Positions 34,805 to 47,162 of a stretch of 64,000 bases of DNA are shown here, one piece after another. Numbering within the stretch: the stretch's first letter is position 1; the number at the start of each line of letters is the position of its first letter. Source of the DNA: Escherichia phage vB_EcoS_HZ_ZJUN2; sequence record PP216084; one strand, written 5' to 3'. The translations under genes were made by a program, and so were the position numbers. The notes below the pieces were generated by a model. The model saw nothing but the letters and a program-made list of their open reading frames with translations, made no database searches and was not told the origin of the DNA.

Positions 34805-34811
34805 AAATTTA

Positions 34812-34840: not shown

Positions 34841-34872
34841 TACTTCCATAAATTAATGAGAGGAAGCGAAAT

Positions 34873-35486: not shown

Positions 35487-35494
35487 AAATTTAT

Positions 35495-35818: not shown

Positions 35819-35857
35819 AGAACTGGATAACTGGTGCTTTTAACGTAAAAGCTTCCG

Positions 35858-35930
35858 AGGTTAGTTGCGCACTGCCTAAACCACGCGGTAGTTGGTTCCA
35901 GACTAACCAACCAGTCTGCTGAATAGTTTT
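35858..35930 (+). terminator. hairpin + T-run (terminator or processing site)
   Basis: GTTGGTT-CCAGACT-AACCAAC hairpin followed by TTTTATT. Confidence 0.3.
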
Positions 35931-36319
35931 ATTACGATTTAACTATGTCCAGGCTAAAGAAGAACTTTAGAAGGTATTCTAGGTAGTGAAGTTTTTCCTC
36001 CATATCGGAGTAGTTTTTCAAGCTACCAACAAAGTGGGAAATGCTGACATGAGAGATGTCACTAATGGTGCACAATAGCACAGGTAATTCGCGATAACTC
36101 CTGTTGAGTAGCAGCAAAAGGCGGGAAGTCATGACCCCAAGCCTAACCGAGTCCTCAATATACCGCAGGACATAACCACTAAGTCACCCTGACTTAAACT
36201 GGAAAATAATAGACGTTACTGTATTTTGTCTTGAAATACTTAATGAGTGAGACTTATGACTCTCCCGGTATCGTCTGTATTTTTAAGAGTTTTTACGAGA
36301 GTTCTTAAAAATACTTAAA

Positions 36320-36391
36320 CGGGGTGTAGTCTAAGGGAGAGGCAGGAGTCTTCTAAATTCCTTTATGCAGGTTCGAATCCTGTCACCTCGG
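36320..36391 (+). tRNA. tRNA-Arg (anticodon UCU), CCA encoded
   Basis: Manual cloverleaf: acceptor CGGGGTG/CACCTCG, D-stem GTCT/AGGC, anticodon stem GGAGT/ATTCC with loop CTTCTAA, T-arm GCAGG-TTCGAAT-CCTGT, then G-CCA. Confidence 0.6.
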
Positions 36392-36428
36392 CCAATTTTA
36401 TTAACTGTAACTAAAACAAAGGAAATAT

Positions 36429-37376: not shown

Positions 37377-37400
37377 TTCCCACACGTAATATTCGAAGTA

Positions 37401-37440
37401 AGCCCTGTGTTCCCTGGAGAGCGCAGGGCTTTTCTGTTTT
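37401..37440 (+). terminator. rho-independent terminator
   Basis: AGCCCTG...CGCAGGGCT hairpin + TTTCTGTTTT. Confidence 0.6.
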
Positions 37441-37602
37441 AAGGTAGAGGATAAGTGTGTCTCTTTGGTCACTCAGCTATGACAAATACTTTACACTATA
37501 TCACATTGAAAATCAAGTGGGGATAACAATTTTGGGGTCTATCCACTTACCTGCTACCATTAAGCATCCTGTTATTTTCCTCTAAAAAGTTAAAAAATTC
37601 AA

Positions 37603-37631
37603 TTGCTTGAATGCTAAATTCTCTGTATAAT
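37603..37631 (+). promoter_or_regulatory. sigma70-type early promoter
   Basis: -35 TTGCTT / 17 bp / -10 TATAAT. Confidence 0.55.
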
Positions 37632-37661
37632 ATATTTATAAATTTGAGAGAGGAATCTAGT

Positions 37662-38180
37662 ATGACTGTTGATGAACTAACAGAACATCTCTTATCTAGA
37701 GGGTTTGATACAGATAAGTATCATTGCTGGTTAAGCCAGGAAGGATGGCTAACAGTCCCGTTGTATGACTTCTCTGGGATGTTGAGAGGCTATCAAACTT
37801 ATAATCCTTCTGCTCCAAAAGGTCATGGTAAGTGTCCCTTTGAAGCTAAATATTTTACTTATTCTACTACCCAGTGTGTATGGGGATTAGAAACTCTCAA
37901 TGGAGATGAAAAAGTAGTATTGATTGCTGAATCTGTATTTAAGGCAGTTGCGTTACATAACGCTGGTTATCCAGCCCTGGCAATGTTGGGTTCTTCCCCC
38001 GGAAAAGCATTATTAAAGCAATTGAAATTATTACCTTTTAAATTGGTAGCTGTAGGAGATAATGATCCTGCGGGTGAAAAATTTGCTAGAAAATTAAACG
38101 GCTTTGTTTCTCCTGTAGATGTAGATGAGATGTCTACCGAAAACTTGAAAAATTTTCTTGCTATGAAGCTAAATTTCTAA
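37662..38180 (+). CDS. TOPRIM-domain protein (about 172 aa)
   Basis: Track ORF 37611-38180 trimmed to ATG 37662 downstream of the promoter; TOPRIM-like VVLIAESVFKA...LVAVGDNDPAGEKFA. Confidence 0.55.
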   Translation: MTVDELTEHLLSRGFDTDKYHCWLSQEGWLTVPLYDFSGMLRGYQTYNPSAPKGHGKCPFEAKYFTYSTTQCVWGLETLNGDEKVVLIAESVFKAVALHNAGYPALAMLGSSPGKALLKQLKLLPFKLVAVGDNDPAGEKFARKLNGFVSPVDVDEMSTENLKNFLAMKLNF

Positions 38181-38186
38181 TATAAT
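38158..38186 (+). promoter_or_regulatory. sigma70-type promoter overlapping the 3' end of the TOPRIM gene
   Basis: -35 TTGCTA / 17 bp / -10 TATAAT; drives the two following tRNAs. Confidence 0.5.
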
Positions 38187-38200
38187 ATATTTATAAATTC

Positions 38201-38286
38201 GGAAGAATAGCATAACGGTATTGCAGCAGATTGCTAATCTGTCGGTTTGAAATATAGCCTTGTGGGTTCGATTCCCACTTCTTCCG
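38201..38286 (+). tRNA. tRNA-Ser (anticodon GCU), class II, CCA encoded
   Basis: Acceptor GGAAGAA/TTCTTCC, anticodon stem GCAGA/TCTGT with loop TTGCTAA, long variable arm, T-arm GTGGG-TTCGATT-CCCAC, G-CCA. Confidence 0.65.
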
Positions 38287-38295
38287 CCAAATTCT

Positions 38296-38370
38296 GGTTC
38301 TCAAGCTCATATGGTATGAGCACCCAGCTCATAACTGGAAGGTACGTAGGTTCGAATCCTCGGGGAGCCA
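38296..38370 (+). tRNA. tRNA with anticodon CAU (Met/fMet/Ile2 not distinguished)
   Basis: Acceptor GGTTCTC/GGGAGCC, D-arm GCTC-ATATGGTAT-GAGC, anticodon loop CTCATAA, TTCGAAT T-loop with imperfect T-stem, A-CCA. Confidence 0.5.
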
Positions 38371-38396
38371 CCAACTTAATTAGAAAGTAGTAAACT

Positions 38397-39080
38397 ATGA
38401 GAACTGATATACTCGATAGAAAGGAAGAAATAACTCAGTGGATAGCTCAGGGAAAATCTAAAGCAGAGATAGCAAGAATGCTATCTTGTGCCTCGAATAC
38501 TCTAGAAGCATATTTAGGAAAACTAGGGATAATAATTACTCCTACTAATAGGCAGCAGGATAATAAATATAAGTCTGCAACAGAGTATTTATATAATGGC
38601 AGTCCTATCTCTTCCTATAGACTAAAGAATAAAATTCTTAACGAGGGACTAAAACCACATAAATGTGAGGGTTGCGGACTAGAAAGCTGGTTAAATAAAC
38701 CAATTCCCTTAGAACTCGAGCATAAAGATGGAGACCACTATAATAATGAGTGGGACAACTTAGCCCTCCTATGCCCAAATTGTCATGCACTAACACCTAC
38801 TCATGCAGGCAAAAATATTGGCAGGTATACAGAAAGGGTGGTAAATACATGTGCTATTTGTCATTGCGAAATTAGCCCAAAGGCAACGCACTGTAAATCA
38901 TGTACCCCGAAAGAACTAACTATAAATCCAGATATTACTGCGGAGCAAATAGAGTATTGGGTATCTAAGTATTCCTGGGTTCGTGCCTCCAAAGAATTAG
39001 GATTATCTGACACGGGGTTAAGAAAAAGATATACGTCCTTAACAGGAAAAGATCCTAAAAGTATTAAGAAAAGTAGGTAG
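38397..39080 (+). CDS. HNH endonuclease (227 aa)
   Basis: HNH motif CEGCGLESWLNKPIPLELEHKDGDHYNNEWDNLALLCPNCH; C-terminal tail paralogous to ORF 41268-41849. Confidence 0.7.
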   Translation: MRTDILDRKEEITQWIAQGKSKAEIARMLSCASNTLEAYLGKLGIIITPTNRQQDNKYKSATEYLYNGSPISSYRLKNKILNEGLKPHKCEGCGLESWLNKPIPLELEHKDGDHYNNEWDNLALLCPNCHALTPTHAGKNIGRYTERVVNTCAICHCEISPKATHCKSCTPKELTINPDITAEQIEYWVSKYSWVRASKELGLSDTGLRKRYTSLTGKDPKSIKKSR

Positions 39081-39109
39081 TATAATTAACACCAAATTAA
39101 GGAAATAAG

Positions 39110-39277
39110 ATGTATAGACATCCACCTCCGCCAACACGTCGTTCTAGAGAAGTTATTCTCATGGAATTGACTAAAAACTTCAAGGCAACTCTTGAAGATA
39201 GAGATCTAGGCACGGATGAAGATATTGATTTTATTTGTAGACTATTAAAGATGAAACTGGAGAAACAACATGGCTAA
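39110..39277 (+). CDS. small hypothetical protein (about 55 aa)
   Basis: ATG with RBS AAGGAAATAAG; below ORF-track cutoff. Confidence 0.35.
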   Translation: MYRHPPPPTRRSREVILMELTKNFKATLEDRDLGTDEDIDFICRLLKMKLEKQHG

Positions 39278-39476
39278 TCCTGAAATTACCGCACAACGTT
39301 TCATGCTTAAAGGCATGATTGCTGAGGCAGGTATAACTCAAGAGGTTGCAGATTTTCATAAGCAATTTCTTGACATTATAACTCTAGCTAAAGAGACTGG
39401 AGAAAAAGAACACGGTGCAGCAATTATGGCTATAACTCTTATTAGTCTAGACTTGGCAGAAGAATCTGGAGTTTAG
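39270..39476 (+). CDS. hypothetical protein (68 aa)
   Basis: ORF track. Confidence 0.45.
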   Translation: MANPEITAQRFMLKGMIAEAGITQEVADFHKQFLDIITLAKETGEKEHGAAIMAITLISLDLAEESGV

Positions 39477-39506
39477 CTCCTCCGAACAGAATTTTTAAAA
39501 ATGTAC

Positions 39507-39536
39507 TTGCCTTTTGCTTTAAATTTCTGGTATAAT
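39507..39536 (+). promoter_or_regulatory. sigma70-type early promoter
   Basis: -35 TTGCCT / 18 bp / -10 TATAAT. Confidence 0.5.
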
Positions 39537-39566
39537 AGTTATATAAATTGATGAAGGAGTTAACGA

Positions 39567-39842
39567 ATGCAAAATCGTGTTATAGCAACTGGTATTGAAA
39601 GTGCAATCTGTAAATCCTGGGAAGGCTGGGAAGGTGAGATTGAATGGCTTTATTTCTACGATGTAGAACTTCTGCCGGAAATTAAAGCTAAATGTGTTGA
39701 AGCTGGCATGGCTCCAGATGCAAAAGCTGATATTGATATTTCAATGTCTGAACTTAAAGGTCGTGTAATTACTGTTAGTGATGGGGGCGAAGAAGTTTTC
39801 GAACTTCCATTCTCCTTAACTGTCGCTCCTAAGTTCGACTAA
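39567..39842 (+). CDS. hypothetical protein (91 aa)
   Basis: ORF track; RBS GAAGGAG. Confidence 0.5.
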   Translation: MQNRVIATGIESAICKSWEGWEGEIEWLYFYDVELLPEIKAKCVEAGMAPDAKADIDISMSELKGRVITVSDGGEEVFELPFSLTVAPKFD

Positions 39843-39878
39843 CTAATACAGCACTGAGCAAGTTCTTTAAAATTTGAC

Positions 39879-39907
39879 TTGCTCAGTGCCTTAAAACTTG
39901 GTATAAT
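39879..39907 (+). promoter_or_regulatory. sigma70-type promoter embedded in an inverted repeat
   Basis: -35 TTGCTC / 17 bp / -10 TATAAT; the -35 lies in the 3' arm of hairpin GCACTGAGCAAG...CTTGCTCAGTGC (39851-39890). Confidence 0.5.
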
Positions 39908-40041
39908 AGTTATCTAATTTGGAAAGTTCTTTTTAAGGTAGTTCTTACTTTAGCAGAGTAAACTTTCGGCAGATGGCGGCAGCCACTTTACCGATATTCC
40001 ATAGTCAGTGCCGCAAACACTGGCTACCTTAAAGAGAATTT

Positions 40042-40126
40042 GGGCGTTTATTCCGTAAGTGGTAGCGGAGGGGAATGTAAATCCCTGGTCATTGCGACTC
40101 GAGTGGTTCGACTCCATTAACGCCCA
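40042..40126 (+). tRNA. tRNA-Tyr (anticodon GUA), class II, CCA encoded
   Basis: Acceptor GGGCGTT/AACGCCC, anticodon stem GGGGA/TCCCT with loop ATGTAAA, long variable arm, T-arm GTGG-TTCGACT-CCAT, A-CCA. Confidence 0.6.
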
Positions 40127-40137
40127 CCAAATTTAAT

Positions 40138-40209
40138 GCACCTATCGTCTAATGGTTAGGACATCAGGATTTCAATCTGAGAATCGGAGTTCAATTCTCC
40201 GTGGGTGTA
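40138..40209 (+). tRNA. tRNA-Glu (anticodon UUC), CCA encoded
   Basis: Anticodon stem TCAGG/TCTGA with loop ATTTCAA, T-arm CGGAG-TTCAATT-CTCCG, acceptor GCACCTA/TGGGTGT. Confidence 0.55.
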
Positions 40210-40220
40210 CCAATTTCTGC

Positions 40221-40294
40221 ATTCCTAGAGTGTTACTGGACAGCATGTCGGTCTCCAAAACCGTACGGTCTAGGTTCGAGTCCTAGTAGGTTTG
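40221..40294 (+). tRNA. tRNA-Trp (anticodon CCA), tentative
   Basis: D-stem TGTT/AGCA, anticodon loop CTCCAAA, T-arm CTAGG-TTCGAGT-CCTAG, G-CCA; acceptor stem has two mismatches. Confidence 0.45.
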
Positions 40295-40303
40295 CCAAAA
40301 TTT

Positions 40304-40375
40304 GCACCTTTAGCTGAGATGGATTAGCGCTTGCCTGAAGAGCTTGAAAGGTTGGATCGTTACCAACGGGGTGCA
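40304..40375 (+). tRNA. tRNA (anticodon uncertain, possibly CUG)
   Basis: Acceptor GCACCTT/GGGGTGC with A-CCA, T-stem GTTGG/CCAAC with unusual T-loop ATCGTTA. Confidence 0.4.
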
Positions 40376-40395
40376 CCAAATTGAAGGAGCTGCTG

Positions 40396-40668
40396 ATGCA
40401 TCCTGAAAACTTCTTTATTTACTGCGCGGATAAGTCGCTGAAACGTAGAATTAACAAAGTCTATCATTATCGTGCTAGTCAACAGCCTTATGTATACGCT
40501 TTTGACGGTGATCACATTCCACTAGAACAATTATCTTGTGATTACATGATATTGAAGAACTTTGACGAGACGAAGATCTCAAGCGTTTATAATCGACAGA
40601 ATCCATTAACGTGGAAATATAAGAAGAAAAAGAAAGGCATCAAATTCTTAAAAAATATAGTTGCTTAG
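40396..40668 (+). CDS. hypothetical protein (about 90 aa)
   Basis: Track ORF 40381-40668; likely start ATG 40396 after RBS GAAGGAG. Confidence 0.45.
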   Translation: MHPENFFIYCADKSLKRRINKVYHYRASQQPYVYAFDGDHIPLEQLSCDYMILKNFDETKISSVYNRQNPLTWKYKKKKKGIKFLKNIVA

Positions 40669-40689
40669 TTTCCAAAAGTTCTGTATAAT
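40661..40689 (+). promoter_or_regulatory. sigma70-type promoter driving tRNAs
   Basis: -35 TTGCTT / 17 bp / -10 TATAAT; -35 overlaps the stop region of ORF 40396-40668. Confidence 0.5.
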
Positions 40690-40737
40690 AATTACATAAA
40701 TTGAACTGGAGAAGCAACATGATAGAACAAGATAAAT

Positions 40738-40810
40738 CGACCGTTGGCTGAATGGCTTAGGCGAAGGATTGCAAATCCTTTTTATGTGAGTTCAAATCTC
40801 ATGCGGTCGT
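40738..40810 (+). tRNA. tRNA-Cys (anticodon GCA), CCA encoded
   Basis: Acceptor CGACCGT/GCGGTCG, anticodon stem AAGGA/TCCTT with loop TTGCAAA, T-arm GTGAG-TTCAAAT-CTCAT, T-CCA. Confidence 0.65.
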
Positions 40811-40815
40811 CCAAT

Positions 40816-40956
40816 TTGCTGAAAGAATTGTTAAATCAATTCAGGCACGCGTAGGAACACTGTCTCCGTAATTGAAAGATGAGGCACGGTTTGGAGAGGT
40901 ATGCCGCTACACGCTACGGTGCTAACTCCGTCTAGGTGAAAATCCTAGTCAGCAAT
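40816..40956 (+). ncRNA. ~141-nt tRNA-like structured RNA candidate
   Basis: Perfect 7-bp terminal pairing TTGCTGA/TCAGCAA, T-arm-like hairpin CTAGG-TGAAAAT-CCTAG at the 3' side, internal hairpin GAATTG-TTAAAT-CAATTC; too long for a tRNA. Confidence 0.3.
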
Positions 40957-40965
40957 GTAAATTTA

Positions 40966-41048
40966 GGGTCGTTGGCTGAACGGTTTAAGCGCCGGACTGT
41001 TAATCCGTATCCGCAAGGATAAAGTAGGTTCAACTCCTACACGGCCCG
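40966..41048 (+). tRNA. class II (long variable arm) tRNA with anticodon GUU (Asn-type anticodon on a Ser/Tyr-type body)
   Basis: Acceptor GGGTCGT/ACGGCCC, Ser-like D-arm TG-GCT-GAACGGTTTAA-AGC, anticodon stem CCGGA/TCCGT with loop CTGTTAA, variable arm ATCC-GCAA-GGAT, T-arm GTAGG-TTCAACT-CCTAC, discriminator G, CCA. Confidence 0.5.
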
Positions 41049-41078
41049 CCAAATTCACTAACAACTGAGGAAATAGAT

Positions 41079-41264
41079 ATGACAACTCGTGCAATTGCTC
41101 GACTAGAAGCTGATCGTGATAATATGATTAATAATATTAAGGTTCGTGGTAATATTATTAAGGCTCTGAAAGCTGAACTTCTTGAGGAACTTCAAGGTCA
41201 AGTAGAGCGTCGTGAAGCTCTAAAAGAGGTTGAGGAAGCTATCGAAAAACTCAAGGCTGAATAA
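41079..41264 (+). CDS. small coiled-coil hypothetical protein (61 aa)
   Basis: ORF track; RBS GAGGAAATAG. Confidence 0.45.
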   Translation: MTTRAIARLEADRDNMINNIKVRGNIIKALKAELLEELQGQVERREALKEVEEAIEKLKAE

Positions 41265-41267
41265 ATT

Positions 41268-41849
41268 ATGCACGGAATATCCTTACCCATTCCAGGGTTT
41301 GAGGAGTACTTAGTAAGTTTGGATGGGTTAGTATTTAGTATCAAATCAAACAAAATACTAACCCCAATAACCAGTAATTACGGATACTTATCTATACGTC
41401 TCCATAAAAATGGTCAACAGAGAAATACCGGTGTACATAGGATTTTAGCATGTGCATTTAAGAAATTACCAAGTCTAGACTCTGAACTAGAAGTTGACCA
41501 TATTAACACAGACATTACTTATTGGGGTCTTAATAACTTACAAGTGCTCACAAAAGAGCAGCATCTAGAAAAGACTTTAAAAGATAAAGGATTTAGTAAA
41601 CTAAACCATGATAATTGTTGTAAGGATTGTGGTAAAGCTATTTCTTTAAAAGCTGAAAAATGTCAGGAGTGCTCTTCACATAAACCAAAAGATATCTCTA
41701 TAACTAAAGAAATAATCGAGGTTACAGTAAGAGAGCTAGGCTGGTCAGGTGCAGGGAGAAAGTTAAGTTATTCAGATAATGGGTTGCGTAAAAGATACAC
41801 TTCTTTAGGAGGCAATCCTAAAGAACTTAAAAAGTTAAAGGTACTATAG
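41268..41849 (+). CDS. HNH endonuclease (193 aa)
   Basis: HNH motif LEVDHINTDITYWGLNNLQVLTKEQH with Cys cluster CCKDCGK...CQEC; stop codon lies inside the 5' acceptor stem of the following tRNA-Asp. Confidence 0.7.
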   Translation: MHGISLPIPGFEEYLVSLDGLVFSIKSNKILTPITSNYGYLSIRLHKNGQQRNTGVHRILACAFKKLPSLDSELEVDHINTDITYWGLNNLQVLTKEQHLEKTLKDKGFSKLNHDNCCKDCGKAISLKAEKCQECSSHKPKDISITKEIIEVTVRELGWSGAGRKLSYSDNGLRKRYTSLGGNPKELKKLKVL

Positions 41850-41911
41850 TCTAACGGTTAGGATACTCCCCTGTCACGGGAGAGGTAGGGTTTCGATTAC
41901 CCTTAGTACCG
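41840..41911 (+). tRNA. tRNA-Asp (anticodon GUC), CCA encoded
   Basis: Acceptor GGTACTA/TAGTACC, anticodon stem CTCCC/GGGAG with loop CTGTCAC, T-arm GTAGG-GTTTCGATTA-CCCTT region, G-CCA. Confidence 0.65.
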
Positions 41912-41931
41912 CCAAATAAGGTAGGTTAGCT

Positions 41932-42090
41932 ATGGAACGTAGGGAGTTTACTCCAGAAGAGATAGAGCAGATAAAAGAATCTGCTATGAAAAATGCTAGA
42001 ATATCTCTGTCACTGGAAGGTATCATTATTAGTGATGTAAACTTTGAAAAAATCAAAGCCATAGCTGATGAACTGGAAAAAGTAATTTAA
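41932..42090 (+). CDS. small hypothetical protein (about 52 aa)
   Basis: ATG with RBS AAGGTAGG; below ORF-track cutoff; sits between two tRNAs. Confidence 0.35.
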   Translation: MERREFTPEEIEQIKESAMKNARISLSLEGIIISDVNFEKIKAIADELEKVI

Positions 42091-42091
42091 T

Positions 42092-42164
42092 ACATCCATA
42101 GCTCAATGGTTAGAGCTACCGCCTCTTAAGCGGAGGGTTCTAGGTTCAAGTCCTAGTGGGTGTA
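42092..42164 (+). tRNA. tRNA-Lys (anticodon CUU), tentative
   Basis: D-arm GCTC-AATGGTTAG-AGC, anticodon stem CCGC/GCGG with loop CTCTTAA, T-arm CTAGG-TTCAAGT-CCTAG, A-CCA. Confidence 0.5.
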
Positions 42165-42193
42165 CCAAATTAAACTAGCACGAGAAATATGCT

Positions 42194-42541
42194 ATGATTA
42201 ATGCTAAAGAAGAATTGTTACTTGCCCTAAAGAATACTAATTCTGAAGTTAAGTGTATTAAGATAGAATTCGGTTATTATGGGGATAAAGAAGTTTGGGT
42301 ATTACCCGTAGGTTATACAGAAAAAGATATTGAAGATTTTCTAAATAATCTAGACTTTAAATATGATTCTGGTTATGGTGGGCAATTGCTTTATGGTAAC
42401 GTGTGGTTTACTGATGGAACTTGGTTAGAACGCGGTGAATACGACGGTTCTGAATGGTGGGAATATAAGGCTACGCCAGCAATCCCAGAAGAATGCCGAA
42501 CAATTAATGGTGAAGTAGATCATACATTACTACTAAATTAA
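42194..42541 (+). CDS. hypothetical protein (115 aa)
   Basis: ORF track. Confidence 0.5.
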   Translation: MINAKEELLLALKNTNSEVKCIKIEFGYYGDKEVWVLPVGYTEKDIEDFLNNLDFKYDSGYGGQLLYGNVWFTDGTWLERGEYDGSEWWEYKATPAIPEECRTINGEVDHTLLLN

Positions 42542-42551
42542 TAAAAATTAA

Positions 42552-42625
42552 CAGTGCGTAGCTCAGCTTGGTAGAGCGTCTGCTTTGGGAGCAGAATGTC
42601 GCAGGTTCGAGTCCTGCCGCACTGA
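42552..42625 (+). tRNA. tRNA-Pro (anticodon UGG), CCA encoded
   Basis: Acceptor CAGTGCG/CGCACTG, D-arm GCTC-AGCTTGGTAG-AGC, anticodon stem TCTGC/GCAGA with loop TTTGGGA, T-arm GCAGG-TTCGAGT-CCTGC, A-CCA. Confidence 0.7.
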
Positions 42626-42634
42626 CCAAACAAT

Positions 42635-42707
42635 TGCGGGTGGGAGGCATAGAGTTCTTCTTAGTCTCATAAGCTAAGTAAGTCCAGGGCAGTACTGGAA
42701 CCCGCTA
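42635..42707 (+). tRNA. tRNA with anticodon CAU and non-canonical T-loop
   Basis: Correct cloverleaf spacing; anticodon stem TTAGT/GCTAA with loop CTCATAA; T-stem TCCAG/CTGGA but T-loop GGCAGTA instead of TTCRANY; A-CCA. Confidence 0.45.
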
Positions 42708-42727
42708 CCAATTTCAAGAAAAACTCA

Positions 42728-42756
42728 TTTGCTTAATGCTTAATTTCTTGTTATAA
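42728..42756 (+). promoter_or_regulatory. sigma70-type promoter driving an untranslated RNA
   Basis: -35 TTGCTT / 17 bp / -10 TATAAT; downstream ~320 nt lack any ORF of 60 aa or more before tRNA-Ala. Confidence 0.5.
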
Positions 42757-42764
42757 TATTTATA

Positions 42765-43089
42765 TAAATTGATGCGAAAATAGCTGCCTAGATACCAGGT
42801 GTATGACGTCTACACTAGCAGAGCTACCGAAAAAGAGATCCTCAGGATAAACGTCGTAGCAAAATTAGTCTGGTATCCATCAATTTAGTTCACTAAGGTA
42901 TTAGCTCGACCTAGGACTGGCTGCCAAAAAGCACGATCCCTACGACTTGGGAGAAGTTCTAGATTAGTCCACTAGATTCAGCGGCAACTGAATAGTGTAT
43001 TGGGTTTGCGAGATGACGCGGTTCCTTCCGCTCGAAGCGAAGGTGCTGTAGTTACGCCGAGCTAATAGCCTTAGTAAACTAAAGAATTT
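42765..43089 (+). ncRNA. candidate structured non-coding RNA (~320 nt) co-transcribed with tRNAs
   Basis: Promoter-proximal, no plausible ORF, several complementary segments (e.g. GATACCAGG / CTGGTATC; AGCTGCCTAG / CTAGGACTGGCTGCC). Confidence 0.3.
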
Positions 43090-43160
43090 GGGGATATAGT
43101 TTAATGGTAGAACATCTGCTTTGCACGCAGAAGACGAGGGTTCAACTCCCTCTTTCTCCA
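43090..43160 (+). tRNA. tRNA-Ala (anticodon UGC), CCA encoded
   Basis: Anticodon stem TCTGC/GCAGA with loop TTTGCAC, T-arm GAGGG-TTCAACT-CCCTC, A-CCA. Confidence 0.6.
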
Positions 43161-43168
43161 CCAAATTC

Positions 43169-43250
43169 GGGGCTATGCTGGAACTGGTAGACAATACGGC
43201 CTTAGATTCCGTAGCTTAAATGCGTGGGAGTTCGAGTCTCCCTAGCCCCA
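43169..43250 (+). tRNA. tRNA-Leu (anticodon UAG), class II, CCA encoded
   Basis: Acceptor GGGGCTA/TAGCCCC, anticodon stem ACGG/CCGT with loop CTTAGAT, long variable arm, T-arm GGGAG-TTCGAGT-CTCCC, A-CCA. Confidence 0.55.
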
Positions 43251-43377
43251 CCAAATTTGATGGTCAGAGTAAATTAAACCTACTATCTCGGTTGAGCTGT
43301 TTTAATGGGTTCGAATCCCAGCGAGGCGTAACTGCCTGGTGTGATAGAGGCATCATTCCACTAATATTGGAAAACTA

Positions 43378-43608
43378 ATGAAACGAGAATTAAAAAAATC
43401 TTATATAATTAAGATAAATAAGCTAAGAAGTAGGGCAAAAGGATGGCCACTTCGGATATTAATTGCGGATAACCATATTAGATACCATGCGGAACAACGT
43501 CATTATAAACAGTGGGAGTCATACTGCCGCTCAAAAGCAGGTCGTTTAGATGGATCTTATGAGTTTCTATTTGGTAAGAAGCCTACTAGAGTAGCTTTAG
43601 GTAATTAA
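43378..43608 (+). CDS. hypothetical protein (76 aa)
   Basis: ORF track. Confidence 0.45.
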   Translation: MKRELKKSYIIKINKLRSRAKGWPLRILIADNHIRYHAEQRHYKQWESYCRSKAGRLDGSYEFLFGKKPTRVALGN

Positions 43609-43613
43609 TACTT

Positions 43614-43701
43614 GGAAGAGCAAATCGAATTGGCGACGAAAACCGCTTGGAAAGTGGCTGACTGGTAAAACGGCTTGAGAGTTCAAATCTCTCCTCTTCC
43701 G
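43614..43701 (+). tRNA. tRNA-Ser (anticodon GGA, tentative), class II, CCA encoded
   Basis: Acceptor GGAAGAG/CTCTTCC, anticodon loop TTGGAAA, long variable arm, T-arm GAGAG-TTCAAAT-CTCTC, G-CCA. Confidence 0.55.
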
Positions 43702-43711
43702 CCAAACAAAT

Positions 43712-43798
43712 AGAAGGTAGGGCGTAGTGGTACGCAACTAGTCTTGAAAACTAGCCCGCTGTAGTGATACGGTGATGGTTCGACTCCATTACCTTCTG
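43712..43798 (+). tRNA. tRNA-Ser (anticodon UGA), class II, CCA encoded
   Basis: Acceptor AGAAGGT/ACCTTCT, anticodon stem CTAGT/ACTAG with loop CTTGAAA, long variable arm, T-arm with TTCGACT loop, G-CCA. Confidence 0.6.
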
Positions 43799-43817
43799 CC
43801 AACTTATAAGGTAATAT

Positions 43818-44000
43818 ATGTCTTTAACGAAAACTGTGAAGGTTACACTAACTGATGGCACAGAGTTTAGTGCACAAGTAACCTTACTAGAAGACGGTTA
43901 TTGGGAAGTATATCTTCCACACGTTAATTCTACTGGTAGAGGATGGACTCAACAACAGGCTATTGTTGATGCTTTAAATGAGGCTTCTGCTGGTTTATAA
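43818..44000 (+). CDS. hypothetical protein (60 aa)
   Basis: ORF track. Confidence 0.45.
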   Translation: MSLTKTVKVTLTDGTEFSAQVTLLEDGYWEVYLPHVNSTGRGWTQQQAIVDALNEASAGL

Positions 44001-44008
44001 AAATTCTT

Positions 44009-44106
44009 GGAATATGCCGGAATTGGTAGACGGGACTGCCGAATAGGTTTACTAGGAACATCCACTCCTAGAAATATACCTTAAAAGCGGTTGAGTTAAA
44101 TGGTCT
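44009..44106 (+). ncRNA. irregular tRNA-like element (Leu-like D-arm plus T-arm, about 45 nt too long)
   Basis: D-arm CCGG-AATTGGTAGA-CGGG resembling bacterial tRNA-Leu, T-arm GAAGG-TTCAAGT-CCTTC, acceptor-like pairing GGAATA/TATTCC, but extra hairpins lie between D- and T-arms. Confidence 0.3.
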
Positions 44107-44367
44107 AACTCATGAAGGTTCAAGTCCTTCTATTCCTTGATACATCAATGGCTCAAAGTGTAACGGTGCTATTTGATGCTCTTGGCAAGACTTCCCCGAC
44201 ATGCGTTCGGGAGTAAGCTGCTAAGACTAGAATAGAAGAGTTTCTGAGAGCCGCCACAATTGAAAATTCGTACTCGTCTTGAGCTGCGTGCAATAGGAGA
44301 TAACTTGATTAGTATTCTAGAACATGCTAATTGAGGAAGGTTTCGCTAACCCTGCGAGTTTTCAATT

Positions 44368-44441
44368 GTGGCTATATCATAATTGGTTAATGATCCTGAT
44401 TGTGAATCAGGCCTATGTGGATTCGAATTCCACTAGCCACC
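44368..44441 (+). tRNA. tRNA-His (anticodon GUG), CCA encoded
   Basis: Acceptor GTGGCTA/TAGCCAC, anticodon stem CCTGA/TCAGG with loop TTGTGAA, T-arm GTGGA-TTCGAAT-TCCAC, C-CCA. Confidence 0.65.
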
Positions 44442-44469
44442 CCAAATTAACTTAAATAGGAAATAAAAT

Positions 44470-44664
44470 ATGGCTGATTTCTGCAAACAATGCTCCATTG
44501 ATATGTGGGGTAAAGATACTGGTGACTTAGCTGGTCTGATTACAGAAGCCGAAGTCAAAGAAGGTTATGGTGCAGTTGTGGTTTGCGAAGGATGCGGAGT
44601 CATTCGAGTAGATCATGAAGGCAAACGTTTGGAAGAATCTGAGCCAACAACAATTTTTCCGTAG
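44470..44664 (+). CDS. small Cys-rich hypothetical protein (64 aa)
   Basis: ORF track; RBS AGGAAATAAAAT; CxxC...CxxC pattern. Confidence 0.5.
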   Translation: MADFCKQCSIDMWGKDTGDLAGLITEAEVKEGYGAVVVCEGCGVIRVDHEGKRLEESEPTTIFP

Positions 44665-44677
44665 AGTAAAGAATTAT

Positions 44678-44750
44678 TGGGATGTAGATCAATTGGCAGA
44701 TCGTCGGCCTCTGACTCCGAAGGTTCCACGTTCGATCCGTGGCATCCCAG
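44678..44750 (+). tRNA. tRNA-Gln (anticodon CUG), CCA encoded
   Basis: Acceptor TGGGATG/CATCCCA, anticodon loop CTCTGAC, T-arm CCACG-TTCGATC-CGTGG, G-CCA. Confidence 0.6.
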
Positions 44751-44759
44751 CCAAATTAT

Positions 44760-44832
44760 TGGAGAGTAGTGTAACGGTTAGCACAACGGCCTTTGACTCC
44801 GTTAATGGTAGGTTCGATTCCTCCTTCTCCAG
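44760..44832 (+). tRNA. tRNA-Gln (anticodon UUG), CCA encoded
   Basis: Acceptor TGGAGAG/TTCTCCA, anticodon loop CTTTGAC, TTCGATT T-loop, G-CCA. Confidence 0.55.
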
Positions 44833-44842
44833 CCAAATTAAT

Positions 44843-44914
44843 GCGTGATTAGTTCAGTGGCTAGAATAACTGGCTTCCAACCAGTAGACACGAGTTCGAC
44901 TCTCGTATCCCGCA
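44843..44914 (+). tRNA. tRNA-Gly (anticodon UCC), CCA encoded
   Basis: Anticodon stem ACTGG/CCAGT with loop CTTCCAA, T-arm ACGAG-TTCGACT-CTCGT, A-CCA. Confidence 0.6.
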
Positions 44915-44931
44915 CCAAATAAGGAATCTCT

Positions 44932-45153
44932 ATGCACGTTTTTGAGTTTCGTAATAAAAGTACCAATAAACGAGTTATTGTTATTGGGGAAACATATCGA
45001 GCATATGAACAAACTGACGGCTCTGTTATCTTGAATGATGAGAAAGGGGGTTTTAGCTTTTATCCAGAAGAAACATATGAAGAGTTTCGTACCAAGTTTC
45101 TTTTACCAGACTGGCTAGCAGTAGCCGAGCAACGAGAATCCGAAGATGGCTGA
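44932..45153 (+). CDS. hypothetical protein (73 aa)
   Basis: ORF track; RBS AAGGAATC. Confidence 0.5.
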   Translation: MHVFEFRNKSTNKRVIVIGETYRAYEQTDGSVILNDEKGGFSFYPEETYEEFRTKFLLPDWLAVAEQRESEDG

Positions 45154-45211
45154 TAACCTAAAATTAAGGGTTGACAAACAAAAGAAATCCCATTGAAATA
45201 ATGGGATTATC

Positions 45212-45283
45212 GCTCCTAAAGCATTGTTGGCGATGCAGTTGCCTTGTAAGCATCTGAGCTGGGTTCGATTCCTAGTGGGAGCA
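45212..45283 (+). tRNA. tRNA-Thr (anticodon UGU), CCA encoded
   Basis: Acceptor GCTCCTA/TGGGAGC, D-stem GCAT/ATGC, anticodon loop CTTGTAA, T-arm CTGGG-TTCGATT-CCTAG, A-CCA. Confidence 0.55.
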
Positions 45284-45301
45284 CCAAATTTAAAAATTCA
45301 T

Positions 45302-45330
45302 TTGCTTTCTCTCTTATTTATTGTTATAAT
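45302..45330 (+). promoter_or_regulatory. sigma70-type early promoter
   Basis: -35 TTGCTT / 17 bp / -10 TATAAT + leader ATTTACATAAATTAATGAGAGGGAAACC. Confidence 0.55.
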
Positions 45331-45360
45331 ATTTACATAAATTAATGAGAGGGAAACCAA

Positions 45361-45651
45361 ATGAAACGTTATCTTTCTGTTATGTTCCAAACCGGCGGCC
45401 AAAGATACACCTATGAATTTCCACCTTCCTGGAAAATCAGGGAAGGTGATCAAGTAGTTGTGTTAACACCGCGTGAAGAATATAAAGTAGTGACGGTTAA
45501 ACAAGTATTTCCAAAAGATCATGAACCAGCTATAGGCATCCGATATAAGATGATTCATGGCGTGGTTCGTCAAGTACCACGAACTGAGGTAGAAGTAGAT
45601 AATACTGGAGAAACTAAATTCCATTATACTTCTCACTTAGACAGTGTGTGA
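45361..45651 (+). CDS. hypothetical protein (96 aa)
   Basis: ORF track. Confidence 0.5.
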   Translation: MKRYLSVMFQTGGQRYTYEFPPSWKIREGDQVVVLTPREEYKVVTVKQVFPKDHEPAIGIRYKMIHGVVRQVPRTEVEVDNTGETKFHYTSHLDSV

Positions 45652-45666
45652 TGTAAATATTTTAAT

Positions 45667-45740
45667 GCTTCGGTAGCTTAGCGATCTAAAGCACTCGGCT
45701 GATAACCGAGAGATCGGGGGTTTAAATCCCTCCCGAAGTA
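45667..45740 (+). tRNA. tRNA-Ile (anticodon GAU), CCA encoded
   Basis: Acceptor GCTTCGG/CCGAAGT, anticodon stem CTCGG/CCGAG with loop CTGATAA, T-arm GGGGG-TTTAAAT-CCCTC, A-CCA. Confidence 0.65.
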
Positions 45741-45837
45741 CCAAATCTAGGAATTAAGACTATGCGTCCAGGAAAGTTTAAAAAAGCTAGTTGGTCCAAA
45801 GAGTACAAAGAATACTTACTTAGCCTAGTAAAACGTA

Positions 45838-45910
45838 ATAGTTAGTTGGCAGAGTGGTTATGCACCTCCTTCATACGGAGCGACTACAGTGGTTCAAATC
45901 CACTACTAAC
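45838..45910 (+). tRNA. tRNA-Met-type (anticodon CAU), CCA encoded
   Basis: Acceptor AGTTAGT/ACTAACT, anticodon loop TTCATAC, T-arm AGTGG-TTCAAAT-CCACT, A-CCA; a 27-codon mini-ORF (45762-45841) ends inside its 5' end. Confidence 0.6.
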
Positions 45911-45928
45911 TACCAAACAGGAGATCTA

Positions 45929-46297
45929 ATGAAAGCGTATCAAAATCTTAAATCTGGCGTAATTAATATTGTTCATAATAACCAGATTATTCAACTGTAC
46001 TCTAAAGATGGTGAACTTAAACAAAAAGTTCTAGTTGAAGATCTAGAGAGTATCACACCTCATTTTGACCCCGAATCCTTTCGTGAAGTCAAAGTGGAAG
46101 TCGCCCCTCAAATTGAAGGTGGTCAACACCTAAATGTCAATGTGTTAAGTCGTGATCAGCTTTTGGATGCGCAGAAACATCCTGAAAAATACCCTCAATT
46201 AACTATCCGTGTTTCAGGGTATGCTGTGCGTTTTAACGCACTGACGCGTGAACAGCAGAACGACGTTATTAGTCGTACATTTACTCAGGTGATGTAA
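45929..46297 (+). CDS. hypothetical protein (about 122 aa)
   Basis: Track ORF 45854-46297 trimmed past the tRNA to ATG 45929 with RBS CAGGAGATC. Confidence 0.5.
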
Positions 46298-46378
46298 TGG
46301 GGCTTGGATACGGCTTCTACGAACTACGTAGGGTAGTCGAGCAAACTCCATTTATCTCCCAAGTTTTAGGAGAAATGT

Positions 46379-46693
46379 GTGGATCGAGCATTAAGACGTC
46401 ACCATCGGCAACGTGTGAAAAACAATCGCAAGAAATATTGGACAGTCTTCCCACATGAAGAAAGCCCTAAACGGTTAGGTATTATCACTACTACTCCTTG
46501 CATCTGTTCTTGTTGGATGTGCGGGAATCCTCGCAAACACTTTAAGAATAGTAAAGCAGGGATGAAAACCTCGGAGATTAGGAAAATGGAAGCAATGATT
46601 ACGGATATTTCAAATGATGAATTTGATGGCTTTGTAGGATTCGGAGAAGGAATTAGCTCAGACTGTTTCGAAGATGAACGCCCCGATCTGTGA
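46379..46693 (+). CDS. hypothetical protein (104 aa), Cys-containing
   Basis: ORF track. Confidence 0.45.
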   Translation: MDRALRRHHRQRVKNNRKKYWTVFPHEESPKRLGIITTTPCICSCWMCGNPRKHFKNSKAGMKTSEIRKMEAMITDISNDEFDGFVGFGEGISSDCFEDERPDL

Positions 46694-46699
46694 TTAATA

Positions 46700-46737
46700 A
46701 CAAACCCCAGCTATTGAATAAGTAGTCTGGGGTTTTT
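46700..46737 (+). terminator. rho-independent terminator
   Basis: AACCCCAG...CTGGGGTTTTTCTG. Confidence 0.55.
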
Positions 46738-46814
46738 CTGTATATAGGTAAATAATTTATGTATAATAAAATTCACCCACATTAGGTTAATTTAAAAGAC
46801 TTAATGGAGGTAAT

Positions 46815-47162
46815 ATGAGCCGTACTTATCGTAAACAATCTGGTGATCAGTGGTGGAAGTCTAAAGCTAATTACACCCAGGGATATGCTTTCCTCAAAGC
46901 AAGTGGCTACTACATTCGTGTTACTTATGCTAAATCCTGGGATGAGGTAGAACAGGAAATGGAAGAAGCAACCATTCGTAATGAGAAAAAGGATGGTTAT
47001 AGCTGGAATTCTGTTAGTAAGAATGTTAAGTGGCATTCTAATAAAATGGTTCGTCAAGGAAATCGTCAGGAACTCCACCGCGTGATGAAAGACCCAGAAA
47101 ATTACGACTATAATCGCGATCATGACATGCGTAAGCGTGGATTATGGTGGTGCTACGACTAA
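46815..47162 (+). CDS. hypothetical protein (115 aa)
   Basis: ORF track; RBS TAATGGAGGTAAT. Confidence 0.5.
   Translation: MSRTYRKQSGDQWWKSKANYTQGYAFLKASGYYIRVTYAKSWDEVEQEMEEATIRNEKKDGYSWNSVSKNVKWHSNKMVRQGNRQELHRVMKDPENYDYNRDHDMRKRGLWWCYD

What the first reader, a model, noticed from the sequence alone, without database searches (positions are those of the whole stretch)
44009..44380. Irregular tRNA-like segment and a long-range inverted repeat abutting tRNA-His
44009-44106 has a Leu-like D-arm and a canonical T-arm but ~45 extra nt between them. Downstream, GCCACAATTGAAAA (44251-44264) is the exact inverse complement of TTTTCAATTGTGGC (44367-44380), which includes the first bases of tRNA-His. 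The ~100-nt loop between could be an excised or processed element, or the pairing could occlude the tRNA-His 5' end as a regulated processing site.
Basis: seen in the sequence. Interest (0 to 1): 0.5.

Follow-up and report, generated by a model that had tools for sequence, protein, structure and literature searches.

The report
Known T5 stable RNAs beside tRNA-His
The flagged stretch holds three small stable RNA genes already catalogued in phage T5 (a tRNA-like RNA1, RNA I and RNA III), and the inverted repeat is the conserved 20-base-pair stem at the base of RNA III, so the finding is real but already known, with function still unknown.

Summary
The window is a T5-like phage. The interval 44006-44367 matches, at about 97-98% identity, three RNAs annotated in T5 GenBank records. 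These are RNA1 ("tRNA-like stable RNA with unknown functions"), RNAI and RNAIII ("stable RNA with unknown functions"), lying directly upstream of tRNA-His.

The "irregular tRNA" is RNA1. It is a class-II, Leu-like cloverleaf whose anticodon loop is replaced by a ~40-nt helical extension. Covariation supports this fold (97.6% of cells paired, 14 of 35 pairs with double changes). It has no conserved anticodon and no encoded CCA.

It is the 20-bp basal helix of RNAIII (44253-44272 / 44353-44372). The helix spans RNAI's CCA end and the first 5 nt of tRNA-His.

Relatives carry six unrelated inserts in this slot. All keep a 20-bp helix, with 11 compensatory pairs and many G·U pairs, so the pairing is selected at the RNA level.

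The best reading is a double-strand processing site in the polycistronic precursor, probably cut by RNase III. That enzyme assignment is inferred, not shown.

Novelty: already known. Function: still open.

The parts
44006..44149 (+). RNA1: tRNA-like stable RNA (extent as annotated in T5). The tRNA-like core is 44008-44138.
   Evidence: Aligns to T5 rna1. ARAGORN -i calls 44008-44138. The structure is supported by covariation on 21 sequences.
44009..44014 (+). RNA1 acceptor-stem 5' strand (GGAATA). It pairs with 44131-44136 (TATTCC). No CCA follows.
   Evidence: Five of 6 pairs show double compensatory changes. The lack of CCA is shown.
44017..44033 (+). RNA1 D-arm, Leu-like (CCG-GAATTGGTAGA-CGG).
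   Evidence: G18/G19-type residues are invariant. The D-loop matches the phage's own tRNA-Leu.
44035..44091 (+). RNA1 extended anticodon arm. Stem 44035-44039/44087-44091. Helix 44045-44048/44078-44081. Apical hairpin 44052-44071 with loop ACAUCCAC at 44058-44065.
   Evidence: Helices 3-5: 8 pairs with double changes. The loop is kept exactly in 26 of 27 loci retrieved without using the loop.
44092..44112 (+). RNA1 long variable arm (TGAGTT-AAATGGTCT-AACTCA). Loop at 44098-44106.
   Evidence: helix 6. The window and T5 differ by a compensatory T-A to A-T change. The loop is conserved.
44114..44130 (+). RNA1 T-arm (GAAGG-TTCAAGT-CCTTC).
44137..44149 (+). RNA1 3' trailer forming a small hairpin (TTGAT-AC-ATCAA). 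In some relatives an extra ~125-nt module sits inside it.
   Evidence: Sequence. Insertions in L015 and bux are shown.
44150..44256 (+). RNAI: 107-nt rod-like stable RNA. It has a tRNA-type terminal stem (GGCTC/GAGCC) and an encoded GCCA 3' end.
   Evidence: T5 rnaI. Fold. A second, 100/101-nt form shares only the ends. The CCA rule is shown.
44257..44260 (+). 4-nt spacer CAAT between RNAI and RNAIII, lying inside the helix.
44261..44366 (+). RNAIII: 106-nt stable RNA. It has a basal stem plus a three-branch interior.
   Evidence: T5 rnaIII. Fold z = -2.9. It is found in 282 phage records, all at 90% identity or more.
44253..44272 (+). 5' arm of the 20-bp helix. It covers the discriminator G and CCA of RNAI, the spacer, and the first 12 nt of RNAIII.
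44353..44372 (+). 3' arm of the 20-bp helix. It covers the last 14 nt of RNAIII, U-1, and the first 5 nt of tRNA-His.
44368..44444 (+). tRNA-His(GUG). T5 records annotate it from 44367 (U at -1).

Best explanation
The interval is part of a polycistronic tRNA-cluster transcript of a T5-like phage. Between a small ORF and tRNA-His it carries three non-tRNA stable RNA genes that are already named in T5.

(i) RNA1 is a tRNA(Leu)-derived, class-II tRNA-like RNA. Its acceptor, D, variable and T arms are intact, but its anticodon loop has been replaced by a ~40-nt helical extension. It therefore cannot decode. Two nearly invariant loops suggest it is recognised in trans.

(ii) RNAI is a rod-shaped RNA with a tRNA-like acceptor end and an encoded GCCA.

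(iii) RNAIII is a branched hairpin.

The inverted repeat is the 20-bp helix at the base of RNAIII. In the unprocessed precursor it pairs RNAI's GCCA end and spacer with the last nucleotides of RNAIII and the first 5 nt of tRNA-His. This holds the tRNA-His acceptor strand until the helix is cut.

The most likely mechanism is inferred, not shown. Host RNase III would make a staggered cut in this helix. That cut would release RNAIII with a 2-nt 3' overhang, leave RNAI with a 4-nt tail that exonucleases trim back to CCA, and free the tRNA-His 5' end.

My sub-confidences are: identity with the T5 RNAs 0.97; RNA-level selected helix 0.9; RNase III as the enzyme about 0.4.
For: Identity. The region is 96.8% identical to T5 AY692264, whose annotation places RNA1, RNAI, RNAIII and tRNA-His end to end. 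AY543070 calls them 'tRNA-like stable RNA' and 'stable RNA with unknown functions'.

RNA1 fold. Of 35 pairs, 97.6% of cells are paired and 14 pairs show double changes. No shuffle out of 500 matched this, and slid controls gave 40-51% paired with at most 3 such pairs. RNAalifold gives the same fold.

Not a decoder. The implied anticodon is UAA, AAA or AAC, and the insert position varies among variants. RNA1 has no encoded CCA, whereas 20 of 21 tRNAs in the window have one.

Helix. Six unrelated inserts occupy the slot, which measures 42-147 nt from RNAI's discriminator base to the 5th nt of tRNA-His. All keep pairs 1-20, and pairs 21-22 are not kept. Eleven pairs show double changes, no shuffle out of 500 matched, and slid controls gave 32-45% paired. 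There are 17 G·U cells against 5 non-pairs, which points to pairing of the + strand RNA.

Occlusion. In the MFE of 44150-44447 the 20-bp helix forms and the tRNA-His acceptor stem does not.

Geometry. The T5-annotated RNAIII ends (44261 and 44366) give a 2-nt 3' overhang within the helix.

Precedent. E. coli RNase III takes part in T4 tRNA maturation (PMC4810235).

No counterexample. All 26 viral contigs with this tRNA-His carry the arrangement.
Against: No transcript-end data were available here. The RNAIII and tRNA-His boundaries come from a GenBank annotation whose experimental basis I could not read. The 3' end may simply have been set next to a tRNA-His drawn with a -1 nucleotide.

The outer 4-5 bp (CCAC/GTGG) never vary. 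They are also constrained independently by RNAI's CCA end and the tRNA-His acceptor, so they say nothing about pairing.

RNase P, followed by exonucleases or another endonuclease, could produce the same ends.

The tRNA region of T5 is dispensable in the laboratory (deletion mutants cited in PMC11464382 and PMC12483538). RNA1 is absent from DT57C. None of these RNAs is therefore essential.

The sequences sampled are related phages, so the covariation counts are not independent events.
Confidence: 0.75

Rival explanations
1. RNA1 is a real intron-containing tRNA-Leu(UAA). Its 40-nt insert is removed to give a decoding tRNA for the phage's commonest Leu codon.
For: It places a 40-nt insert at 32/33 and finds a perfect CUUAAAA loop. 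UUA makes up 25.6% of Leu codons in long ORFs of the window. The window and T5 have only a tRNA-Leu(UAG).
Against: In other RNA1 lineages the same procedure gives AAA or AAC 'anticodons' and different insert positions, while the extension helices themselves covary and so are selected. RNA1 has no encoded CCA, unlike 20 of 21 tRNAs here. The insert is far too short for a group I intron and gives no Rfam intron hit. Bacteria have no known protein-based tRNA splicing (established knowledge). T5 records list the full 144-nt form as the stable RNA.
Confidence: 0.04
2. The inverted repeat is a DNA-level feature. It would be the terminal inverted repeats of small mobile cassettes, or recombination or homing-endonuclease sites, that shuttle inserts into the slot in front of tRNA-His. 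On this view it is not an RNA structure.
For: The slot holds six unrelated inserts in otherwise similar phages. RNA1, RNAI and RNAIII types are combined mosaically. HNH homing endonuclease genes lie nearby in T5. A similar hairpin element upstream of tRNA-Tyr is shared at 87-90% with unrelated Vequintavirinae phages.
Against: Each insert brings its own inner arm sequence, yet keeps exactly 20 pairs. There are 17 G·U cells against 5 non-pairs. G·U pairs are tolerated only in RNA of the + strand, and would be C·A mismatches on the other strand or in a cruciform. The arm sequence occurs only at this one locus in 64 kb. No target-site duplication was seen. Cassette exchange and an RNA-level role are not mutually exclusive.
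Confidence: 0.1
3. The complementarity is incidental. RNAI must end in GCCA and tRNA-His must start with GUGGC, so the arms match by coincidence, and the rest is just RNAIII's own terminal stem with no role in processing.
For: Pairs 2-7 of the helix never vary. They are explained by the two independent constraints: the CCA end and the tRNA-His acceptor.
Against: The helix is continuous across both junctions. Its length is fixed at 20 bp in all insert types, and pairs 8-20 covary. The spacer (CAAU) and the -1 U, which belong to neither mature RNA core, are always paired. The precursor fold has z = -5.3.
Confidence: 0.08
4. The distal part of RNAIII acts as an intrinsic terminator or attenuator that controls read-through into tRNA-His.
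For: The consensus scan flags the hairpin at 44342-44358 followed by TTTTCAATTG as terminator-like.
Against: Two such sites were found in the region against 1.5 expected in shuffles. The T-run is the 3' arm of the 20-bp helix. No promoter-like site on the + strand precedes tRNA-His. In T5 the nearest annotated upstream promoter is P13b, far upstream, so tRNA-His needs read-through. Other insert types lack this hairpin.
Confidence: 0.03

Closest known systems
Bacteriophage T5 stable RNAs RNA1, RNA I and RNA III (GenBank AY543070, AY692264; also DT57C NC_027356)
   Same: They have the same sequence (about 97-98% identity), the same order, the same end-to-end arrangement before tRNA-His, and the same lengths of 144, 107 and 106 nt.
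   Different: Nothing substantive differs. The window is a different isolate, 99.4% identical to Salmonella phage phA11. The records give no structure or function ('unknown functions').
Class-II tRNA-Leu (Rfam RF00005)
   Same: RNA1 has an acceptor stem, a Leu-type D-loop GGAAUUGGUAGAC, a long variable arm, and a T-arm with the UUCAAGU loop.
   Different: The anticodon loop is replaced by a ~40-nt helical extension. There is no conserved anticodon and no encoded CCA, and position 1:72 is a U·U mismatch. Rfam scores it below threshold.
RNase III processing stems: rRNA operon stems, T7 early sites, and the T4 tRNA cluster (PMC4810235 and its refs 47-48)
   Same: It is a ~20-bp duplex formed by sequences that flank an excised RNA inside a polycistronic precursor. 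The annotated ends give a 2-nt 3' overhang.
   Different: Cleavage by RNase III has not been shown for T5. Here the duplex also contains the mature CCA end of one RNA and the first 5 nt of a tRNA.
Phage T4 species 1 and species 2 stable RNAs (rnaD, rnaC) in the T4 tRNA cluster (from my own knowledge)
   Same: They are small stable RNAs of unknown function, co-transcribed and co-processed with phage tRNAs. They have tRNA-like terminal features.
   Different: The listed hits of the blastn searches with RNA1, RNAI and RNAIII were T5-like phages; I did not search T4-like genomes specifically. I recall the T4 RNAs from memory and did not compare them here.
tRNA mimics such as bacterial Y-RNA-like YrlA and tmRNA
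   Same: They have a tRNA-like elbow (D-loop/T-loop) joined to a non-tRNA helical module.
   Different: There is no Rfam hit to YrlA or tmRNA, and ARAGORN finds no tmRNA. In RNA1 the ends are at the acceptor stem. In YrlA, as I recall, the ends are at the opposite helix.

Membership tests
T5 RNA1 / RNAI / RNAIII (annotated stable RNAs of Tequintavirus T5) | Sequence identity and co-linearity with the annotated T5 genes | tested here: met
   Mean column identity is 98% over 43990-44460. T5 misc_RNA features map to 44006-44149, 44150-44256 and 44261-44366.
T5 RNA1 / RNAI / RNAIII (annotated stable RNAs of Tequintavirus T5) | Accumulation as discrete stable RNAs in infected cells | not testable with these tools
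   This rests on the GenBank notes ('stable RNA') in AY543070. No expression data were available.
Canonical tRNA (Rfam RF00005 / ARAGORN default) | Cloverleaf scoring above the curated threshold | tested here: not met
   Only a partial 23.9-bit hit at 44070-44138 against a gathering score of 29. There is no default ARAGORN call, and the region is absent from the Rfam gathering list.
Canonical tRNA (Rfam RF00005 / ARAGORN default) | 7-nt anticodon loop with an anticodon conserved among orthologues | tested here: not met
   The anticodon arm is extended by ~40 nt. The implied anticodons are UAA, AAA or AAC, with insert positions from 33 to 39.
Canonical tRNA (Rfam RF00005 / ARAGORN default) | Encoded 3' CCA, as in the phage's own tRNAs | tested here: not met
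   Twenty of 21 window tRNAs end in CCA. RNA1's acceptor stem is followed by TTGATAC.
Canonical tRNA (Rfam RF00005 / ARAGORN default) | Acceptor, D and T arms with elbow nucleotides (U8, G18G19, U54U55C56) | tested here: met
   These columns are invariant in 21 sequences, and the acceptor stem covaries.
Intron-containing tRNA (group I intron in tRNA-Leu(UAA), or enzymatically spliced tRNA intron) | An intron with a self-splicing core or a conserved splice motif, leaving a conserved anticodon loop | tested here: not met
   The insert is 40-41 nt. There is no Rfam intron family hit at E<=10. The residual loop is not conserved, and the insert helices themselves covary.
RNase III processing site | About two turns (~20 bp) of mostly regular duplex flanking the excised RNA | tested here: met
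   The 20-bp helix 44253-44272 / 44353-44372. Its length is fixed at 20 bp in 10 distinct arm pairs from six insert types.
RNase III processing site | Staggered cleavage leaving a 2-nt 3' overhang | tested here: inconclusive
   T5-annotated RNAIII ends: 44261 pairs with 44364, and the 3' end is at 44366. This fits, but the experimental basis of the annotation is unknown.
RNase III processing site | Dependence of the ends on the rnc gene, or cleavage by purified enzyme | not testable with these tools
   This needs an experiment.
MITE-like or other mobile element with terminal inverted repeats | Multiple copies, a conserved TIR sequence, and target-site duplication | tested here: not met
   The arm sequence occurs only at this locus in the window. 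The inner arms differ between inserts but stay complementary, and the excess of G·U pairs indicates RNA pairing.
Y-RNA-like (YrlA) / tmRNA tRNA mimics | Match to the curated covariance model or to the ARAGORN tmRNA model | tested here: not met
   No such Rfam hit at E<=10 in 43800-44500 or at gathering score in 34000-47000. ARAGORN finds no tmRNA.

The most novel reading that the evidence does not exclude
The T5-type tRNA cluster is assembled from exchangeable structured-RNA cassettes. In it, RNA1 is a trans-acting tRNA mimic: its intact tRNA elbow and two nearly invariant loops (ACAUCCAC and AAAUGGUCU) bind or decoy a host tRNA-handling or tRNA-targeting defence factor. This would make it an RNA component of the phage's tRNA-rich 'anti-defence island'. 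The fixed 20-bp helix is an RNase III ruler that sets the unusual U-1 5' end of the phage tRNA-His.
Probability: 0.12. Interest if true: 0.6.

Novelty: already known. Interest (0 to 1): 0.3.

Why it matters
The RNAs themselves are not new. T5 records have listed them for about two decades as stable RNAs "with unknown functions".

What this analysis adds is comparative evidence. RNA1 has a selected tRNA-like fold with a helical module in place of the anticodon. It is present in 492 phage records, including Klebsiella and Pectobacterium phages. The helix joining RNAI, RNAIII and tRNA-His is conserved as a 20-bp RNA duplex even when its contents are swapped.

None of these RNAs has an Rfam family. 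Many genome records annotate hypothetical proteins over them, or nothing at all.

The T5 tRNA region is now known to counter tRNA-targeting defences such as PARIS and retrons (PMC11464382; bioRxiv 10.1101/2023.03.15.532788). These co-transcribed tRNA-like RNAs are therefore reasonable candidates for follow-up, but nothing here shows such a role.

Tried and rejected
- **Rfam** at E<=10 over 43800-44500, and at gathering score over 34000-47000, gave only tRNA hits and no family for RNA1, RNAI or RNAIII.
- **Literature searches** for the original T5 RNA I/III papers found nothing readable in the held library. I found only secondary citations and the GenBank notes.
- **A scan of 185,579 representative bacterial and archaeal genomes** with the two-loop RNA1 pattern gave 4 chance matches inside coding regions and no tRNA-like context.
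- **A viral-contig scan with the 14-mer GAGAGCCGCCACAA** returned mostly random hits and no new insert types.
- **The intron-containing tRNA-Leu(UAA) reading** was considered and rejected, because the anticodon is not conserved and CCA is lacking.
- **The terminator reading** of 44342-44358 was rejected.
- **The MITE / DNA-level reading** was judged unlikely because of the excess of G·U pairs.
- **Loop invariance of RNA1** was at first biased by my own search pattern. I re-tested it with a loop-independent D-arm/T-arm pattern: 26 of 27 loci keep both loops, and T5 wild type has ACATCCGC.
- **RNAI internal structure** shows little covariation beyond the terminal stem, so I make no claim about its interior.

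Full report
**What the window is.** The region 43800-44460 is 99.4% identical to Salmonella phage phA11. From position 43959 it is 96.8% identical to phage T5. The window carries a T5-type tRNA cluster: 21 ARAGORN tRNAs between 35746 and 45915, all on the + strand. The finding lies between a 60-aa ORF (43818-44000) and tRNA-His (44368-44444).

**Checking the observation.** Both features are real, but the coordinates are off.
- The Leu-like D-arm is at 44017-44033.
- GCCACAATTGAAAA is at 44253-44266, and its complement TTTTCAATTGTGGC is at 44359-44372. These are 2 and 8 nt away from the stated positions.
- The second arm does include the first 5 nt of tRNA-His.
- The 14-mer occurs twice in the window, once on each strand (its two arms), against 0.04 expected. 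No shuffle out of 100 gave two matches.
- The repeat extends to 18 nt at 94% complementarity and to a 20-bp helix once G·U pairs are counted. The fold of 44245-44380 has z = -5.3.

**What is annotated there in T5.** The T5 records place three misc_RNA genes end to end in exactly this interval. On the window they map as follows:

| Feature | Length | Window coordinates |
|---|---|---|
| RNA1 | 144 nt | 44006-44149 |
| RNAI | 107 nt | 44150-44256 |
| Spacer CAAT | 4 nt | 44257-44260 |
| RNAIII | 106 nt | 44261-44366 |
| tRNA-His (as drawn in T5) | – | from 44367 |

The wild-type record AY543070 describes RNA1 as a "tRNA-like stable RNA with unknown functions". It describes RNAI and RNAIII as "stable RNA with unknown functions". 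It also lists further RNAs of the same kind: RNA2, RNA3, RNAIV, RNA2H and RNAX. DT57C annotates RNAI and RNAIII as well. The finding therefore rediscovers catalogued genes. None of them has an Rfam family.

**RNA1 structure.** Default ARAGORN and Rfam do not call RNA1 as a tRNA. Its MFE fold is a cloverleaf with a very long anticodon arm.

I collected homologues in two ways: by blastn (T5, phA11, Klebsiella, Pectobacterium and Epseptimavirus phages) and by pattern scans of viral contigs. I aligned 21 distinct sequences (A2). I then tested an explicit structure: acceptor stem, D-arm, 5-bp "anticodon" stem, 4-bp extension helix, 6-bp apical hairpin, 6-bp variable arm and T-arm.
- 97.6% of cells are paired.
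- 14 of 35 pairs show changes on both sides.
- No shuffle out of 500 reached these values.
- Slid controls gave 40-51% paired and at most 3 such pairs.
- RNAalifold independently predicts the same fold.

The acceptor stem changes completely between lineages: GGAAUA/UAUUCC, GAAGUA/UACUUC, GGAGUA/UACUCC, and AUGCCG/CGGGGU (one G·G mismatch) in Klebsiella phages. The tRNA elbow nucleotides are invariant.

Two loops are nearly invariant: ACAUCCAC at the tip of the extended arm (44058-44065) and AAAUGGUCU in the variable arm (44098-44106). My first retrieval pattern contained these loops, so I repeated the retrieval with a D-arm/T-arm pattern that does not. Of 27 loci, 26 keep both loops exactly. 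T5 wild type has one substitution, ACAUCCGC.

**Is RNA1 an intron-containing tRNA?** With introns allowed, ARAGORN calls 44008-44138 as tRNA-Leu(UAA). It places a 40-nt insert at 32/33 and finds a perfect CUUAAAA loop. It is the only such call in the 64-kb window. UUA is the commonest Leu codon here at 25.6%, and the only canonical Leu tRNA is UAG.

Against this reading:
- The same procedure on other RNA1 lineages gives AAA or AAC and different insert positions.
- The insert's helices covary, so the insert itself is selected.
- RNA1 lacks the encoded CCA found in 20 of 21 tRNAs of the window.
- 40 nt is far too short for a group I intron.

I conclude that RNA1 is a tRNA(Leu)-derived mimic, not a decoder. 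The spliced-tRNA reading keeps about 4%.

**RNAI.** It starts exactly where RNA1 ends. It has a 5-bp terminal stem (GGCUC/GAGCC), which is GGGCC/GGCUC in the Pectobacterium phage. It ends in an encoded GCCA followed by CAAU, which follows the NCCA + AAU rule of the phage's tRNAs. Two forms exist, of 107 nt and 100/101 nt. They share only the two ends and have different interiors. Beyond the acceptor-like end it is not tRNA-like.

**The inverted repeat.** It is the 20-bp helix 44253-44272 / 44353-44372.
- The 5' arm is RNAI's discriminator G plus CCA, the CAAU spacer, and the first 12 nt of RNAIII.
- The 3' arm is the last 14 nt of RNAIII, U-1, and G1-C5 of tRNA-His.

In relatives, the slot between RNAI's CCA end and tRNA-His holds six unrelated inserts. 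The slot measures 42-147 nt from RNAI's discriminator base to the 5th nt of tRNA-His. I joined the first and last 24 nt of each distinct slot (A3) and counted pairs.
- Pairs 1-20 are kept, pair 21 mostly is not, and pair 22 never is.
- 11 pairs show double changes.
- No shuffle out of 500 reached these values, and slid controls gave 32-45% paired.
- Examples of compensated arms are CAAGUGAGUACUAU/AUAGUAUUCACUUG in the Pectobacterium phage and AAUUAAAGU/ACUUUAAUU in L019.
- Within pairs 1-20 there are 17 G·U cells against 5 non-pairs. This asymmetry is expected for pairing of the + strand RNA, not for DNA.

All 26 viral contigs that contain this tRNA-His show the arrangement. Pairs 2-7 never vary and are independently constrained, so the evidence rests on pairs 8-20 and on the fixed length.

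**How it probably works.** In the predicted fold of the RNAI-RNAIII-tRNA-His precursor, RNAI's terminal stem stacks directly on the 20-bp helix, and the tRNA-His acceptor stem does not form.

With the T5-annotated ends, U44261 pairs with A44364 and RNAIII ends at 44366. That is a 2-nt 3' overhang, the product geometry of RNase III. It leaves a 12-bp stem on RNAIII.

My best model has three steps:
1. Host RNase III cuts the helix.
2. RNAI's CAAU tail is trimmed back to CCA.
3. The tRNA-His 5' strand is freed to fold.

RNase III involvement in T4 tRNA maturation is a precedent (PMC4810235). This enzyme assignment is inferred, at a confidence of about 0.4. I could not read the experimental basis of the annotated ends, and RNase P plus exonucleases remains possible.

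**Function of the RNAs.** Their function is unknown.
- RNA1 is widespread. It occurs in 492 phage records at 72-100% identity, including 71 Klebsiella phages.
- RNAI (107-nt form) is in 305 records and RNAIII in 282. All RNAIII matches are at 90% identity or more, consistent with cassette presence or absence.
- RNA1 is missing from DT57C.
- The T5 tRNA region tolerates deletions (references cited in PMC11464382 and PMC12483538).
- The region is described as an anti-defence island (bioRxiv 10.1101/2023.03.15.532788). A trans-acting tRNA-mimic role for RNA1 is an attractive hypothesis but untested.

**Verdict.** The features are real and structured, and the helix is selected at the RNA level. 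They are already known as T5 RNA1, RNAI and RNAIII. Interest is modest at 0.3.

Noticed in passing
window 39924-40041 (upstream of tRNA-Tyr 40042-40129); L156 1201-1318: A second RNAIII-like element. It is an 18-nt inverted repeat at 89% complementarity that folds into a ~19-bp basal stem with a branched interior (z = -3.85). It ends 1 nt before tRNA-Tyr. The same ~118-nt element occurs at 87-90% identity in the tRNA regions of unrelated Vequintavirinae phages such as UPEC06 and A73. Many T5-like phages lack it. This suggests exchange of structured-RNA cassettes between phage tRNA clusters.
   Followed up: partly
window 44367-44368: The phage tRNA-His has U rather than G at position -1, with C73. 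T5 records draw the tRNA from that U (78 nt). The U is always paired with an A in the 20-bp helix. How the mature 5' end is set, and how HisRS accepts this tRNA, is unclear.
   Followed up: no
L147 (phage bux) and L015, between RNA1 and RNAI; window 44137-44149: The short trailer hairpin TTGAT-AC-ATCAA between RNA1 and RNAI hosts an extra ~125-nt module in some Epseptimavirus phages. This is a second 'slot' bounded by a small stem.
   Followed up: no
window 38296-38370 and 40304-40375; 35746-35819: Rfam calls two further tRNAs that ARAGORN missed. By position they are probably the T5 Ile2(CAU) and Phe homologues. ARAGORN's tRNA-Ser(ACT) at 35746 is the only tRNA call without an encoded CCA and may be a pseudo-tRNA or another tRNA-like RNA.
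   Followed up: no
window 42899-43070 (upstream of tRNA-Ala 43090): This is the homologue of T5 'RNA2H', another annotated stable RNA of unknown function. Its ends form an inverted repeat, 42899-42913 / 43053-43067.
   Followed up: partly
public records matching window 44006-44367: Many GenBank records of T5-like phages annotate 'hypothetical protein' CDSs over RNA1, RNAI or RNAIII, or annotate nothing there. Only the T5 and DT57C records name the RNAs. The CDS calls are probably mis-annotations.
   Followed up: partly
whole window: UUA is the most used Leu codon (25.6% in ORFs of 150 aa or more). Yet the only canonical Leu tRNA is UAG. The T5-type RNA1 still carries a CUUAAAA remnant of a Leu(UAA) anticodon loop.
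   Followed up: partly
L159 (T5 wild type AY543070) versus L001 (T5 st0 AY692264), RNA1 apical loop: The two T5 records differ in the otherwise conserved apical loop: ACATCCGC in wild type against ACATCCAC in st0 and in every other RNA1 sequence examined here. This is either a real polymorphism or a sequencing difference.
   Followed up: no
window ~44930-45200 (ORFs between tRNA-Gly and tRNA-Thr): PMC12483538 reports that T5 mutants escaping the DRT9 defence map to this tRNA-rich del-1 region and its P11 operon, with 'gp58' named as a trigger. I did not establish which window ORF corresponds to it.
   Followed up: no
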